From Eledone cirrhosa (Eukaryota): DNA of 64,000 nt. Location of the stretch: NCBI GenBank assembly GCA_964016885.1, contig OZ024754.1:31744001-31808000 (forward strand), read 5' to 3'. Every line of letters starts with the position of its first letter. Position 1 is the stretch's first letter. Under the pieces are notes generated by a model. That model did no database searches and had not been told where the DNA came from. It saw only the letters and a list, made by a program, of their open reading frames with translations. The translations under genes were made by a program, and so were the position numbers. Positions 454-32,149 of this stretch are shown here, in pieces.

Positions 454-527
454 CTTCTACAGGACTAGAACTGTTTCATTCGAAGGAAATCATTATTTCG
501 AATGAAACAGTTCTATTCCTGTAGAAG
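454..527. repeat. Imperfect palindrome made of two hammerhead 3' halves, followed by PLE-type tail (to ~610)
   Basis: CTTCTACAGGACTAGAACTGTTTCATTCG...CGAATGAAACAGTTCTATTCCTGTAGAAG; tail 551-610 resembles 772-832. Confidence 0.7.
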
Positions 528-648
528 CTATTTCTATATTTAATTTTGAATATACTCTACTAATGTATTGAGAACCTTACTTACTGTGGCTACCCTCGAT
601 TGAACCTGGGACTTATATATATATATGTATATATATATATATATAGAT

Positions 649-701
649 GAGATTCTACAGGACTAGAACTGTTTCATTCTTTAGAAATCATCAGGAATCT
701 C
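649..701 (-). ncRNA. Type I hammerhead ribozyme motif (PLE-associated)
   Basis: Minus strand gagattc-CTGATGA-tttc taaa gaat-GAAAC-ag ttctagtc ct-GTA-gaatctc: 7-bp stem I, intact core, GUA site; U-U mismatch at base of stem II. Confidence 0.75.
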
Positions 702-702
702 T

Positions 703-755
703 GAGATTCCTGATGATTTCTAAAGAATGAAACAGTTCTAGTCTTGTAGAATCTC
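703..755 (+). ncRNA. Type I hammerhead ribozyme motif (mirror copy)
   Basis: gagattc(703-709) CTGATGA(710-716) tttc taaa gaat GAAAC(729-733) agttctagtctt GTA(746-748) gaatctc(749-755). Confidence 0.75.
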
Positions 756-2959
756 ATCTATATTAAAACTTTTATACTCTGCAATGTATTGAGTACCTTA
801 CTTACTGTGGTTACCTCCGATTCAACCCGGAATAACGTATATATATATATATATATATATATATATATATATATATATATTGTTATACTTGGGGAGGGTC
901 ATATTGTTATAATATTGCCAGAAATAATAACAGAACACTCTCACTGTTTGGTTTGGGTTTCTTTTCGCTTCTGTATCTTTTATATCTCCATAGTTAATTT
1001 ATTTGGCAATCAATGTTTATCATTGATTGACCAGCGGTTAAAAATACAGATATATATATATATATATAGAGTCTATCAAAGTTCTTTCGTCGCACATCTG
1101 TGACATCATCGGTGGTACTATTATGTTTCCTCCAATTAAACATATATATATATATATATATACGTGTGTGTGTGTGTGTGTATTTTAATAAATATTTGCT
1201 CTACGTCTTTATATATATTTATATATATATTATCCTTATCGAGCCCTCTTCGGATTTTAGTCTTCACATTTATTATTATTAATATTATTTTTATTATTAT
1301 TATTATTATTATATATATATATATATACACACACAAATATATATACACATGCAAGTTTACTTGTGTGTGTATGTTGAGAGAGAGAAAAGCAGTTTTTTGT
1401 TGTTTTTACCATTTTTGTTGTTTTTTTTGGTTAGCTTTCTGTTGAAATTTTAGGATAATGTCAGATTTTCTTTTGTTATTTCTGATCTAACGATGTCTAT
1501 TTTGAGAGGAATCTAACATCGAAAGCAACAAACAATTCCGCTGAGACAGAGCCAGGAATCCTGCGATAAAAAAAAAGTCATCATAACTATAAGACCCACC
1601 TCCTGCTCTCACCACCACCACCGCCGCCGACCTTGTTTTTTTTTTGTAAAATAACAGAGAAGGGGTTTATTGGTAGGCAATAAAGACAACACTGTAATTT
1701 GAACTTTCAAATAAATGTAGGGCTTTGGCAGTAAACATCAGAAATGACACAACACAACACAAAACACAGAAGACATTAGTTAGGGTTTCTCACTAGGTGG
1801 GTAGGAGTTGTTCTCTCTTGTATGCAGAGCTGGGGTTACCATTAAGGCCTACTAGGCAGCCAACTAAGGCACATAAATCTCAGAGTCACATTGTATGTAC
1901 GTATGTAAGTATGGATCTGTAACTCCTGGGGAGTCGTTGGGGACGCCATATTAACATACAAAGTTTCTAGGGCATTTTAAAACCTCACAGAGCCCTCGTC
2001 TCAGTACAGTACAATAACTGAAAAGATTTTATTTCATGTCATCACTTAGAAGATTTTCAAATCAAATGCGTGTGGAATGTTTTTGCTATAAGTCACAGGG
2101 TGACTGTTTGCAATGGAAACAAAACGAATGACAGTGAAAGCTAGTTTACAACATGTATCAAGTTATCAGACCCTCTCAGCATTAGATATGTTACAGTTTT
2201 CCTTTACAAAAGATATGTGGTGTTAGTTTCATGTTCGTAAACAAAGACGTCATGCAAGGTGTGAGGTTGACTTTAAAGAAACACAAACTCTTGCGGGTAC
2301 CCAAAGGAAGTCACTAGTGATCCACAAGACTGGGTAAAAAAAGGAAGGGGTTCCTCTGCTCGGCGTGTCTTTGAAGTCCTACGACTAGACTGAGGTCACT
2401 AGCTTTTTCAGGTTATACATCCTTGATGCTCCCAGAAAACGAACGCACCCTCATAGCTCAGCTGACCTGCCAACCTCTAAAAACCCAAACGGAGAGCACC
2501 ATGAAAAAAAGTACCCTCAAGAGAGGAGAAATGAGGCAAAATGGGGAGATTTTACATAATGAAAGCTATAGCCATTTTCACAAATCGCTCATCCATCCCA
2601 AAGTGGGTGGAGATCTCCCCGCCTGACGGGGAGAGGTAACAGGTCTGGCTCAGCCATGTACAATTTCAAACCATATGAACGACCACACCATGGATAAGTT
2701 CATAAAATATCTTCAAAGAGTTTGGCTTAAACATGTACATATTTACACACACACACACACACACACACACACACACACACACACACACACACACACACAC
2801 ACACACACACACACACACACACACACGCACGCACGCACGCACACAGCTATACATACATACAACGACGTACATAGGAGAGACAGCCCGTAGCATATTTGCA
2901 CACTACACAATTATACAAAACCTACAATTTCCTATAAAGATATCTTCAGGCTATAGACA

Positions 2960-3150
2960 AAGTCATCACCAACTTAACCAAAGTCGACTTTTTGAACATC
3001 ACTCTGAACTTAAAATGTAATAGACACTACCCCTAAAGGAAACCTAATAAGTAAACGGCACACATACAATATCTATCGTGCGACAAACAGATCTATAACG
3101 AAGCATTAACGAGAAGTGGCTTCACAGAAAAATTGATATACATGGATAAT
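2960..3150 (+). pseudogene. Decayed PLE RT/thumb fragment
   Basis: Translates TNLTKVDFLNITLNLKCNRHYP and YNEALTRSGFTEKLIYMDN, matching NHRIVNFLDITLNLNTCLHYP and YNEAIARAGYADKIVYIDN of the 15582 ORF. Confidence 0.7.
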
Positions 3151-3557
3151 AAAATGTGTAGTTTGCTTGAAGCATTGTATAAAAAAATATATTATATAAT
3201 GTGGAAAGTGATATAAGGCTAAACAATGATATTCATGGAATATGCCCTAATCCACTCATAAAAAAAGTTAGAAGGAGAAAATATATTTAATATAAATACA
3301 TAATTTTGTGAACCAAAATCGACTGTGCCAGATTTATTTAGGAATATGTTATGAAATGTGAAATTATGACTAAAAGGTTAAATCGATGTTATTTGTTTTT
3401 ATCTTTGCCGTGTTATCCATAGTATAGGACCTGGTATAGGTTGTAGTTTTATGTTAATTTAAGGTTAGTGTAGAGTGTGACAATTCTTTTTATACAAAAG
3501 TTTTAAATGTTGACATTTTTTAACAATCCTGCGACTCATCCCGATCCCATTAACTCA

Positions 3558-29414: not shown

Positions 29415-30366
29415 CTATATATATATATATATATATATAATATATATAATATATAATATATATAATATATAATATATATATATATATATATATATATATA
29501 TATATATTATATATATATATAATATATATATATATATATATATATATATATATATATATATATATATATATATATATATATATTATATATATATATATAT
29601 ATTATATATATATATATATATTATATATATATATATATATATTATATATATATATATAATATATATATAATATATATATATAATATATATATAATATATA
29701 TATATAATATATATATAATATATATATATATATTATATATATATATATATATTATATATATATATATAATATATATATAATATATATATATAATATATAT
29801 ATAATATATATATATATATAATATATATATAATATATATATATAATATATATATATATGTATATATATAATATATATATATAATATATATATATATATAT
29901 ATAATATATATATATATATATATATATATAATATATATATATATAATATATATATATATGTAGATATATATGTATATATATAATATATATATATATATAT
30001 ATATATATATATATATATATATATATATATATATATATATAATATATATATATGTATATATATAATATATATATAAAATATATATATATATATATATATA
30101 ATATAATATATATATATATATATATATATATTATATATATATATATATATATAATATATATATATAATATATATATATAATATATATATAATATATATAT
30201 ATATATATATATATATATATATATATATAATATATATATATATAATATGTATATAATATATATATATATAATATATATATATATAATATATATATATATA
30301 ATATATATATATATATAATATATATATATATATATATAATATATATATATATATAATATATATATA
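29415..30366. repeat. Imperfect (TA)n tract, ~950 bp (others at 9073-9258, 12403-12596, 13506-13861, 18661-18987, 28178-28526)
   Basis: Direct reading. Confidence 0.95.
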
Positions 30367-30480
30367 AGAAAATGCGTTTTTTTTAATGAAAAAAAAACTA
30401 GATAACCTACACGAGTGGAAGTATAAGGAATAGGAATCGAAAATGCAACTAGAGTCTTTTTAAGAATATTTATTTGTTTC

Positions 30481-30524
30481 CTTTACCGGTTTCACAGTTC
30501 TTGTGTTCTTGTGCTTTTCAAAAG
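30481..30524 (-). ncRNA. Minimal type I hammerhead, U3-A8 variant
   Basis: Minus strand ctt-TTGAAAA-gca caagaacacaagaac tgt-GAAA-ccgg-TA-aag; palindromic stem III ACCGGT; stems I and II only 3 bp. Confidence 0.55.
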
Positions 30525-31082
30525 TAGAATTGAGATGGAGGGTTTGTGGTTTTTCTCGCATCTGGTTGGTGTTCGAATATTACTTCTGTTTTATATGGAA
30601 AAAAGTGGCTCGAATTGCTAGGTTTAAAAAAAAAAAATTTGTTGGTTTATGACTGTCACGTGAATAAGTATAATAAATTTCGCGCCAGTTCCCGTTACAT
30701 AGTTCTTATTGTATTTGCCTTTAAAATTGTGTCTCAGATTGTTGTTTTTATATAAAAAACAACAAAAATTTGAGCCACATATTTAATTAATTAAGCCGCT
30801 ATTTTGTTATAATAAATGATACTAACTACGTAAAGCCTCAGGCTTTACGTTCTACCACTCCAGCACCACACCTTACTACCAGCAAACGTAAATACCAACA
30901 ATGAACTAGAAAAAGGGTATTAAATAAATAACAGATTAAAAAATGAATTGAAAATATAAAAACTTATATATATATATATAAGTATTGAAATTTCCGTTGG
31001 AAACAGAAAAGGTCATAGAAATGAAGAGTGCTCTATGTAAGTATCAGAGCAAAATTTAATGTATAAAAATCAATACAATATA

Positions 31083-31160
31083 ATTACCTCATTACCAGAG
31101 GTTTCCCGAATGAGGCGAATACGAAATAAATGACTTCATTCGTTCGTCAGACGAGGCAAT
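31083..31160 (-). ncRNA. Type I hammerhead motif
   Basis: Minus strand attgcctcgt-CTGACGA-a cgaatga...tcattcg g-GAAA-cc tct gg-TA-atgaggtaat: 10-bp stem I, 7-bp stem II with A-G closing mismatch, GUA site. Confidence 0.72.
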
Positions 31161-31782
31161 ATAAAACATGGGTAAATACTTAGAAAAACTCATCAAGAAA
31201 ATCAAAAAAAGATATAGACAAATGAAATAGAAATTGAAATATATAAAAATCTATCAAGAAATATAGTTAGGTGTGTATATATGTATGTATATACGCTCAC
31301 AGATGTGCATATATGTATATGCACACATGTATACGTATAGTGAGAAAGTGTGCGTAATTCTAAAATTTAGGGCAAATGTATCTATATGTCTGTAATCTAC
31401 AGACAGAATAGTTACATCATAAATATATGAATATGAAGGCGCGCGCATAAAACGCCTGCACACTCGTACACTTAGATGCGGAAAGAAAGGAGGTAAGGGA
31501 GTGTAATAATTAAAAGAAAAGTATCAGTCTCGATATATTTATAAAAATATAATAACGATAAATTAGAAAGAAAAAATATTTTTAGAAAGAAAAAAATTAT
31601 ATATATATATATATAATATATAAGATCAAAAGATGGTTAAATGAGTTCCATGTATTTTATTATGCGCATTTCAAAAACAAATATCATCATGCAATAACAT
31701 TTGTGTTTTCATCAGATAAAATAGGACATGATATGAAGGTTAAAAATACTCGTGGATAGTGCAGTTTTAAATCAACGTAGTA

Positions 31783-32149
31783 GAACAGTGTTAAGAATTT
31801 ATGTATAATGATAAACTTTTAGTCTGTATGCACACACACACACACACACACACACACACACACACACACACACACACACACACACACACACAGCCGTCGG
31901 GGTCCTACTCGTTCCTATTACCCACTCTACTACCCTAAGTATTGAGTACTTTGGTGCGTTATGGTCCACCTGGTTCCTTACCACATTTCCTTCGTTATAT
32001 ATATATATATATATATATATATATATATATATATATATGTGTGTGTGTGTGTGTGTGTGTGTGTGTGTGTGTGTGTGTGTGTGTGTGTGTGTGTGTGTGT
32101 GCATACAGACTAAAAGTTTATCATTATACATAAATTCTTAACACTGTTC
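31783..32149. repeat. Inverted repeat (49-bp unique arm plus (CA)/(TG)) enclosing a 107-bp PLE-type tail
   Basis: GAACAGTGTTAAGAATTTATGTATAATGATAAACTTTTAGTCTGTATGC and its exact reverse complement at 32101-32149. Confidence 0.92.

What the first reader, a model, noticed from the sequence alone, without database searches (positions are those of the whole stretch)
454..32149. PLE fragments repeatedly sit at the centre of inverted duplications, from 70 bp to 7.3 kb
Seen: palindromes at 454-527, 641-763, 7324-7394, 8841-9076, 9285-12355, 12597-19895, 22244-28177, 31783-32149 and 46864-47254. Each is built from or centred on PLE-like sequence (hammerhead, tail, GIY-YIG or RT) and most abut (TA)n or (CA)n. 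Established: PLEs often carry an inverted 5'-truncated pLTR. Inference: several arms here include apparently non-PLE flank (microsatellite, Helitron, unique DNA), so PLE integration at microsatellites may routinely copy target DNA in inverted orientation. That would be a palindrome-generating process producing dsRNA-forming and unstable loci.
Basis: partly seen in the sequence, partly recalled or inferred. Interest (0 to 1): 0.75.

Follow-up and report, generated by a model that had tools for sequence, protein, structure and literature searches.

The report
Penelope mirror insertions and TA foldbacks
Most of these palindromes are the known back-to-back insertion form of Penelope-type jumping genes in TA repeats, the largest was likely made later by a rearrangement between repeats, and only a few per cent of insertions carry a mirror copy of neighbouring DNA, likely made when a cut TA end folds back on itself.

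Summary
All nine palindromes exist, but they are three different things.

(1) Six are ordinary PLE inverted-pLTR insertions with arms inside the element. In 23 of 24 classifiable two-ended genomic copies of the window's Hydra-like family, the 3' tail sits on one end only. This scan noted that footprint before on other pieces of this genome.

(2) The 7.3-kb palindrome (12597-19895) is secondary. Its right Helitron and right 3' UTR are mosaics, as expected from an inverted triplication (DUP-TRP/INV-DUP) switching at PLE and Helitron inverted repeats. An assembly path through those repeats is not excluded.

(3) Short target-derived inverted copies are real: 9260-9289, and 31783-31892, whose duplicate at 46864 is the same event. 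They are centred on the (TA)n. About 5 of 135 sampled insertions have one. PLE-centred flank inversions (3 of 296) were no commoner than at SINEs (1 of 243). TA-centred mirrors also occur without a PLE, although 4-5 of 15 abut a PLE end (background about 7%).

'Routinely copies target DNA' is not supported. 'Occasionally, by foldback at the TA cut' is plausible and has an L1 precedent. Read data were inconclusive.

The parts
442..613 (+). Old copy of the 641 family: short inverted arm, direct arm with tail, then (TA)n
   Evidence: 71% like 653-830
641..837 (+). 641-family PLE end with hammerhead-like core; inverted arm without tail, direct arm with tail, (TA)n on both sides
   Evidence: 16,398 exact 31-mer matches
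7320..7473 (+). fam2 element: short inverted arm plus tailed direct arm between (TA)n runs
   Evidence: 21 of 30 copies alike
8762..9072 (-). 8841-family inverted-pLTR insertion; tail on the left end, short end on the right
9073..9259 (.). (TA)95 run, centre of a 30-bp target mirror
9260..9289 (-). Inverted copy of 9043-9072 (target DNA), sharing a base that the other arm and the family lack; joins the famA arm over 5 nt of shared sequence
9285..11755 (-). famA PLE main copy: GIY-YIG 3' part, 3' UTR with internal (CA)n, pLTR; 3' end cut short at the foldback
   Evidence: (PF01541, E 1e-7)
9334..10246 (+). Helitron-like H1 nested in the left famA arm only (label from terminal features, recalled)
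11756..12402 (+). famA inverted 5'-truncated arm with tail
12597..13503 (-). Helitron-like H2, 95.6% identical to H1; independent insertion in (TA)n
13494..13865 (.). Interrupted (TA)n array whose interruption pattern is mirrored at 18659-18999
13868..15573 (-). fam1 (Hydra-like) inverted 3' UTR arm with tail
15567..16931 (+). fam1 5'-truncated RT-EN ORF
16932..18660 (+). Mosaic 3' UTR: 5' part like the unit-2 right arm, 3' part and tail like the left arms (inferred switch 1 between ~18030 and 18569)
18659..19895 (+). Inverted middle copy of TA array plus Helitron (H3): H2/H4-type at 11 of 12 diagnostic sites but with H1's 3' junction (inferred switch 2 between 19624 and 19896)
19896..23470 (.). 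Second direct copy of the famA block, Helitron H4 and TA array
23471..28175 (+). Second fam1 insertion copy in canonical form: tailed left arm, short right end, own TA array 28176-28525
31598..31779 (-). famX PLE 3' fragment; 3' end in (TA)n on the left, 5'-truncated end abutting the target copy
31783..31892 (-). Inverted copy of target DNA 32040-32149 (48 bp plus (CA)31); the 48-mer is 100% identical only at the four places in the two tandem units
31893..31995 (+). fam2 102-bp tailed fragment at the centre of the mirror, followed by (TA)21
46864..47254 (.). Tandem-duplicated copy of 31783-32149 (same event)

Best explanation
Six of the nine palindromes are head-to-head Penelope-like insertions whose arms lie inside the element, the 7.3-kb one is likely a later inverted triplication, and the two short copies of target DNA likely come from foldback at a cut (TA)n. 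Step 1 (footprint shown, chemistry inferred): the element cuts both strands in (TA)n, both ends prime on element RNA at two fixed start sites, and the two 5'-truncated cDNAs are joined, leaving a tail on one end only. Step 2 (inferred): in a few per cent of events a self-complementary (TA)n 3' end folds back and copies 15-200 nt of its own flank before it primes on RNA or is joined. This leaves a mirror centred on the TA run with the PLE beside it; the same foldback also happens at TA runs with no insertion. Step 3 (mosaic shown, route inferred): at 9334-28525 a canonical fam1 insertion (tailed left arm, short right end) and two opposed Helitrons gave two inverted-repeat pairs. Two template switches, right UTR to left UTR and then H2 to H1, duplicated the block and put an inverted copy of tail, TA array and Helitron in the middle.
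For: Tail on one end only in 23 of 24 classifiable fam1 loci (33 fetched, 25 with an inverted arm), and the same two ends in four other families. Flank-versus-flank alignment at the fam1 loci with both ends visible gave a long inverted match only at L032; a 19-bp one was seen at L041. H3 is H2/H4-type at 11 of 12 diagnostic sites yet has H1's junction; the TA array at 18659-18999 mirrors the interruption pattern of 13494-13865 and differs from 28176-28525; the right UTR shares a 12-bp insertion with unit 2 but carries the tail; unit 2 ends at the family's fixed short end. The 9260-9289 copy carries its neighbour's private base and joins over 5 nt of shared sequence. TA-centred mirrors exceed shuffled pairings (33 against 6.7 at score 14, before removing low-complexity arms). 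4 of 15 clean ones abut a PLE end by library and 5 by eye, against a 3-9% background (p 0.018 or 0.003 at 7%). Literature: inverted 5'-truncated copy and one-sided tail (PMC8557442, PMC3846280), both strands cut and extended and two RT start sites (PMC11167929), foldback priming at breaks (PMC10622511), L1 target-site inverted duplications (PMC11702581).
Against: A like-for-like automated test was not significant: 4 of 546 PLE ends (2 clean on inspection) against 0 of 498 SINE ends, p=0.13. 320 of the 546 PLE ends lie beside TA against 36 of 498 SINE ends, so TA and PLE are confounded. 10-11 of 15 mirrors have no PLE beyond the copied arm, and a SINE has an inverted flank copy too (L120). L032 (4.5-kb arms, 2 mismatches, 1.1 kb of flank, tail on both ends) fits a primary cDNA foldback as well as a secondary event. 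The middle copy is closer to unit 2 than to unit 1 (6 differences private to unit 1, 1 each to the others), which also fits an assembler joining two haplotypes. No empty site was found, and the order of famX, fam2 and the foldback at 31598-32149 is not resolved.
Confidence: 0.7

Rival explanations
1. PLE integration routinely copies target DNA in inverted orientation, including kb-long arms, for example by the cDNA folding back and copying through the element's 3' end into the flank.
For: L032 has 4.5-kb near-identical arms that include 1.1 kb of flank. L041 and L129 have flank in the arms. The window holds two short target copies.
Against: PLE-centred flank inversions 3 of 296 against SINE 1 of 243, p=0.63. 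23 of 24 fam1 loci have non-identical outer ends. The window's 7.3-kb arm is mosaic and its twin copy ends canonically.
Confidence: 0.1
2. The short mirrors come from (TA)n fragility alone (hairpin or cruciform breakage and foldback repair), and PLEs lie beside them only because both favour TA runs.
For: 10-11 of 15 clean mirrors have no PLE beyond the copied arm; at L173 a foldback copied two older elements with no new insertion. Automated PLE-versus-SINE test p=0.13.
Against: 4-5 of 15 abut a PLE end, above the 3-9% background measured on non-mirror TA blocks. At 9285-9289 and 31779-31783 the copied arm is joined directly to truncated PLE sequence with no TA between.
Confidence: 0.35
3. The 9.65-kb duplication and its 7.3-kb palindrome are an assembly artefact: the assembler walked through the two inverted-repeat pairs and joined two haplotypes.
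For: The structure is the path such a walk would give. The direct copies differ by 16 substitutions and 8 indels in 5,804 columns, a plausible allelic level, and the middle copy is nearly identical to unit 2.
Against: The middle copy and unit 2 still differ at 2 Helitron sites and in TA length. A switch between homologues predicts the same asymmetry. The artefact reading cannot explain the short mirrors; the 31783 one is present in two diverged tandem copies.
Confidence: 0.25

Closest known systems
Penelope-like elements with inverted pLTR and one-sided tail; Hydra clade (Craig et al. 2021, PMC8557442, passages and section 11 read; Arkhipova et al. 2013, PMC3846280, passages read)
   Same: Inverted 5'-truncated copy at the 5' end, tail at one end, (TA)n targeting; fam1 has the CxCx5C linker, DKT and CxxC/CxH motifs and no CCHH.
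   Different: Tails here are 41-86 nt rather than 30-40; fam1 has RWR for RWK and a 1.7-kb 3' UTR. The passages read do not describe inverted copies of target DNA.
Poseidon PLE in vitro (Frangieh et al. 2024, PMC11167929, parts 1-2 of 4 read)
   Same: Both strands cut and extended; two internal RT start sites define the tail; AT-rich targets.
   Different: Different clade; no foldback of the target reported in the part read.
DUP-TRP/INV-DUP inverted triplication (Grochowski et al. 2024, PMC11293582, abstract and introduction read)
   Same: Duplicated - inverted triplicated - duplicated order, with a switch inside an inverted repeat pair.
   Different: Here kb-scale, with both junctions in transposon inverted repeats (PLE UTR and Helitron); the paper describes the second junction as usually NHEJ or microhomology-mediated. 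Not confirmed by reads.
Foldback priming at DNA breaks (Al-Zain et al. 2023, PMC10622511, abstract read) and L1 target-site inverted duplications (PMC11702581, passages read)
   Same: A broken 3' end self-anneals and is extended; retrotransposon-made breaks give local inversions and inverted duplications.
   Different: Here the foldback site is the (TA)n target itself and the copy is short (15-200 nt) and resolved locally. No report of this for PLEs was found in paper searches.

Membership tests
PLE, Hydra clade (fam1) | Single ORF with RT and C-terminal EN | tested here: met
   745-aa ORF in L039 and L062; RT and EN motifs read by eye (recalled); Pfam gave no hit on the window fragment
PLE, Hydra clade (fam1) | CxCx5C linker, CxxC and CxH around EN, no CCHH | tested here: met
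   CxCx5C and CxxC by pattern; CxH and absence of CCHH read by eye
PLE, Hydra clade (fam1) | N-terminal RWK and DKT motifs | tested here: inconclusive
   DKT present; RWR in place of RWK
PLE, Hydra clade (fam1) | Insertion into (TA)n | tested here: met
   TA run at nearly every end printed for 33 loci
PLE, Hydra clade (fam1) | Canonical hammerhead in the pLTR | tested here: inconclusive
   Core-like pattern found by regex; not folded; Rfam scan gave no hammerhead hit
PLE, Hydra clade (fam1) | Placement in the Hydra clade on an RT tree | not tested
   No reference set on hand
PLE inverted-pLTR insertion | Arms inside the element, tail on one end only | tested here: met
   23 of 24 fam1 loci; six window palindromes
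PLE inverted-pLTR insertion | Same test for 12597-19895 | tested here: not met
   Tail on both ends; arms run 1.3 kb past the element
DUP-TRP/INV-DUP | Duplicated - inverted triplicated - duplicated order | tested here: met
DUP-TRP/INV-DUP | Switch points inside inverted repeats, giving mosaic copies | tested here: met
   H3 and the right UTR are mosaic
DUP-TRP/INV-DUP | Structure confirmed by reads or copy number | not testable with these tools
Foldback-primed inverted duplication | Self-complementary centre with locally identical arms | tested here: met
   (TA)n centre; private base shared; the 48-mer is 100% identical only locally
Foldback-primed inverted duplication | Absent from the pre-insertion allele | not testable with these tools
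   No empty site found; no relatives held
Helitron (H1-H4) | 5' TC, 3' hairpin and CTAG, insertion between A and T | tested here: met
   Read from the sequence; criteria recalled; no Rep/helicase gene tested

The most novel reading that the evidence does not exclude
The PLE endonuclease is the main source of breaks at (TA)n in this genome, and each self-complementary cut end can fold back. PLE activity would then seed both the mirrors beside insertions and the 'empty' ones, and occasionally kb-long arms such as L032. Six clear TA-centred mirrors in 780 kb picked by position extrapolate to roughly 20,000 in the genome (wide error), which would make PLEs a genome-wide generator of target-derived palindromes and of substrates for inverted triplication.
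Probability: 0.25. Interest if true: 0.62.

Novelty: new member of a known kind. Interest (0 to 1): 0.36.

Why it matters
How PLEs form tandem and inverted structures in microsatellites is named as open in Craig et al. 2021. The one-sided tail across five families supports priming from both cut ends. The rare TA-centred mirrors give a specific, testable side reaction: foldback of the target end. The window also shows how PLE and Helitron inverted repeats could template an inverted triplication, or mislead an assembler. It does not show a new routine integration mechanism.

Tried and rejected
Rfam scan: only hairpin and microsatellite look-alikes below gathering score, no hammerhead.

DNA search with the 103-bp fam2 tail found nothing because common words are skipped; an exact pattern then gave 5,190 matches.

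Empty-site search: the left flank proved to be another PLE (famX), and no uninserted paralog was found in the genome search or in the 70 kb of neighbouring DNA fetched.

Reads: no RNA holder listed. Short contigs of four runs (at most 2 samples, 1 study) cover the 48-bp arm and the native 9043-9072 arm, but no listed contig bridges the 31779-31783 or 9289 junctions; a hole proves nothing either way.

First automated adjacency test was spoiled by flank sequence in my library and was redone. The 5-of-137 against 1-of-243 test (p=0.025) compares a hand count with an automated one, and my recount of insertions is about 135, so I give it little weight.

Rows dropped before the 15-mirror count: of 20 rows, one window row, four that are an element's own arms (L037, L061, L129, L166), one low-complexity (L319) and one duplicate (L124); L315 and L328 were added, and L288 and L291 were left out as unclear. 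L328's PLE-centred flank match (arms about 85% alike by eye) was read as insertion into an old palindrome. Three of four SINE flags were SINE ends or neighbouring SINEs. L277 first looked PLE-adjacent but abuts a SINE-like repeat.

Rejected: that H1 and H2 were copied by famA (95.6% identical, H1 nested in one arm only); that the full 7.3-kb palindrome is ancestral (unit 2 would have had to regain the family's exact short end and a different TA array).

The sample could not be enlarged beyond about 1.8 Mb. No supplements were read; those of PMC8557442 may describe target-site features.
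Full report
Setting. The window is G000:C14:31744001-31808000 of a 3.0-Gb animal assembly. The repeat content looks cephalopod-like, which is my recollection and matches earlier scan notes. About half of the window is simple or tandem repeat. After masking, self-alignment recovers all nine listed palindromes.

Families. I searched the genome with each repeat. fam1 (ORF 15567-16931) gave 3,773 candidates, of which 40 were scored, nearly all at 99% identity. 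Exact-pattern counts were 5,190 for fam2, 16,398 for the 641 family, 7,696 for famA, 6 for the 8841 family, 113,544 for a SINE control and 2,571 for the Helitron-like 3' end. fam1 has a 745-aa ORF with the CxCx5C, DKT and CxxC motifs that Craig et al. list for the Hydra clade, with RWR in place of RWK. The 641 family reads through its tail into a similar ORF, famX has a similar EN, and famA has a GIY-YIG domain. No PLE-like ORF was found upstream of fam2 in the three loci checked.

Canonical structure. fam1, fam2, the 641 family, famA and the 8841 family each have two fixed 3' ends, short and tailed, followed by (TA)n. Of 33 fam1 loci fetched with 10 kb, 25 show an inverted arm. Of the 24 whose two ends could be classed, 23 have the tail on one end only and one (L032) on both. 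21 of 30 fam2 copies have an inverted short arm within 200 bp, against 1 of 30 SINEs. This is the published PLE pattern (PMC8557442, PMC3846280; passages read). It fits the in vitro finding that both strands are cut and extended from two RT start sites (PMC11167929, parts 1-2 of 4 read). Earlier notes of this scan reached the same reading on other pieces of this genome. By this standard 454-527, 641-763, 7324-7394, 8841-9076, 9285-12355 and 23471-28175 are ordinary insertions. In 9285-12355 the (CA)n is part of the element (9 loci) and the Helitron is nested in one arm only.

The 7.3-kb palindrome. The order is H1, famA block, H2 reversed, TA array, left UTR, ORF, right UTR, TA array, H3, famA block, H4 reversed, TA array, left UTR, ORF, short right UTR. 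H3 matches H2/H4 at 11 of 12 sites that separate them from H1, but has H1's 3' junction. The TA array before H3 repeats, in reverse, the interruption pattern of the array at 13494-13865 and differs from the array after unit 2. The first right UTR shares a 12-bp insertion with the second right UTR but ends with the tail that only left arms carry. Unit 2 ends at the family's fixed short end. The simplest history is a canonical insertion followed by two template switches at inverted repeats, the DUP-TRP/INV-DUP form (PMC11293582, abstract and introduction read). The middle copy is closer to unit 2 (6 differences private to unit 1, 1 each to the others), and the direct copies differ by 16 substitutions and 8 indels in 5,804 columns. 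That fits a switch between homologues or an assembler joining two haplotypes, and I could not separate the two. Either way the Helitron in the arm was not copied by PLE integration.

Short copies of target DNA. Two are real. 9260-9289 is the reverse complement of 9043-9072 across (TA)95, carries the base private to that arm, and joins the famA arm over 5 shared nt in place of famA's normal end. 31783-31892 mirrors 32040-32149; its 48 unique bases are 100% identical only at the four places in the two tandem units, and it abuts the 5'-truncated end of a famX fragment. The 102-bp fam2 piece in the centre may be a later insertion. In both cases the axis of symmetry is the TA run. A (TA)n strand is self-complementary, so a cut end can prime on itself. 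Foldback priming at breaks and inverted duplications at L1 target sites are published (PMC10622511, abstract; PMC11702581, passages).

How often. I analysed about 1.78 Mb in 309 loci, of which 780 kb were picked by position alone. PLE-centred inverted flanks occurred at 4 of about 292 PLE blocks outside the window, one of them an old palindrome; SINE blocks gave 1 real case in 243, and 3 of 296 against 1 of 243 gives p=0.63. Among 1,423 TA-containing blocks, mirrored flanks exceed shuffled pairings. After the exclusions listed under Tried and rejected, 15 target mirrors remain outside the window. Four abut a PLE end by library (L092, L124, L300, L307) and a fifth by eye (L128), against a 3-9% background: p=0.018 or 0.003 at 7%. 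The other 10 have no PLE beyond the copied arm. A like-for-like automated test gave 4 of 546 PLE ends (2 clean) against 0 of 498 SINE ends, p=0.13, with TA adjacency confounded. By hand, 5 of about 135 targeted insertions carry target DNA in an inversion (L032, L041, L092, L124, L129); for long elements only one end was in view, so this may undercount.

The exception. L032 has 4.5-kb arms with 2 mismatches, tails on both ends and 1.1 kb of flank in the arms.

Reads. Only short contigs and RAD runs were listed, with no RNA holder. The two layings showed no bridging contig and are uninformative.

Verdict. The main architecture is known, the largest palindrome is secondary or an assembly artefact, and target copying is a real but rare side reaction tied to (TA)n, with a modest and not firmly established link to PLE insertion. 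Five paper searches found no report of it for PLEs; the library lacks most subscription papers and no supplements were read.

Noticed in passing
window 32345-33925 and 47455-49035: Two single-exon UDP-glucuronosyltransferase ORFs (526 aa, 99% DNA identity) in ~15-kb tandem units with 57-bp and 24-bp minisatellites; more distant UGT copies (70%) lie about 23-29 kb past the window end. The mirror at 31783-32149 is 196 bp past the stop codon, but AATAAA signals lie 7-47 nt after the stop.
   Followed up: partly
window 13494-13865, 28176-28525, 29416-30366: Long (TA)n arrays have strand-biased interruptions (runs broken mostly by TT or mostly by AA), which may record repeated slippage or priming from one side.
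   Followed up: no
L042, L034, L033: Long direct duplications of the target around fam1 insertions (119 bp at 97%, 165 bp at 93%, about 220 bp at 87%), far longer than usual target-site duplications.
   Followed up: partly
L032 (G000:C4:268668577-268678576): 9.3-kb near-perfect palindrome centred on a fam1 insertion, tail on both ends, 1.1 kb of flank in the arms.
   Followed up: partly
L124:1769-2080: A 25-29 bp host sequence present three times in alternating orientation beside a famX end, as from two rounds of foldback.
   Followed up: partly
L173:1672-2131: 213-bp perfect mirror across (TA)17 that copies one repeat and 17 bp of famA, with no new insertion beyond the copied arm.
   Followed up: partly
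L120:2250-2610: A SINE with a 39-bp inverted copy of its flank followed by (TA)n, so the outcome is not limited to PLEs.
   Followed up: partly
window 7700-8726: Degenerate RT fragment 41% identical to fam1, ending in (TA)n without its 3' UTR.
   Followed up: partly
window 4107-4680: Fragment that looks like the 3' end of an RTE-type LINE (label recalled).
   Followed up: no
L241-L245: Helitron-like copies in tandem within a host tandem repeat.
   Followed up: no
L039, L062: fam1 has copies with an uninterrupted 745-aa frame, top hits at 99% identity and a 1.7-kb 3' UTR, so it is young.
   Followed up: partly
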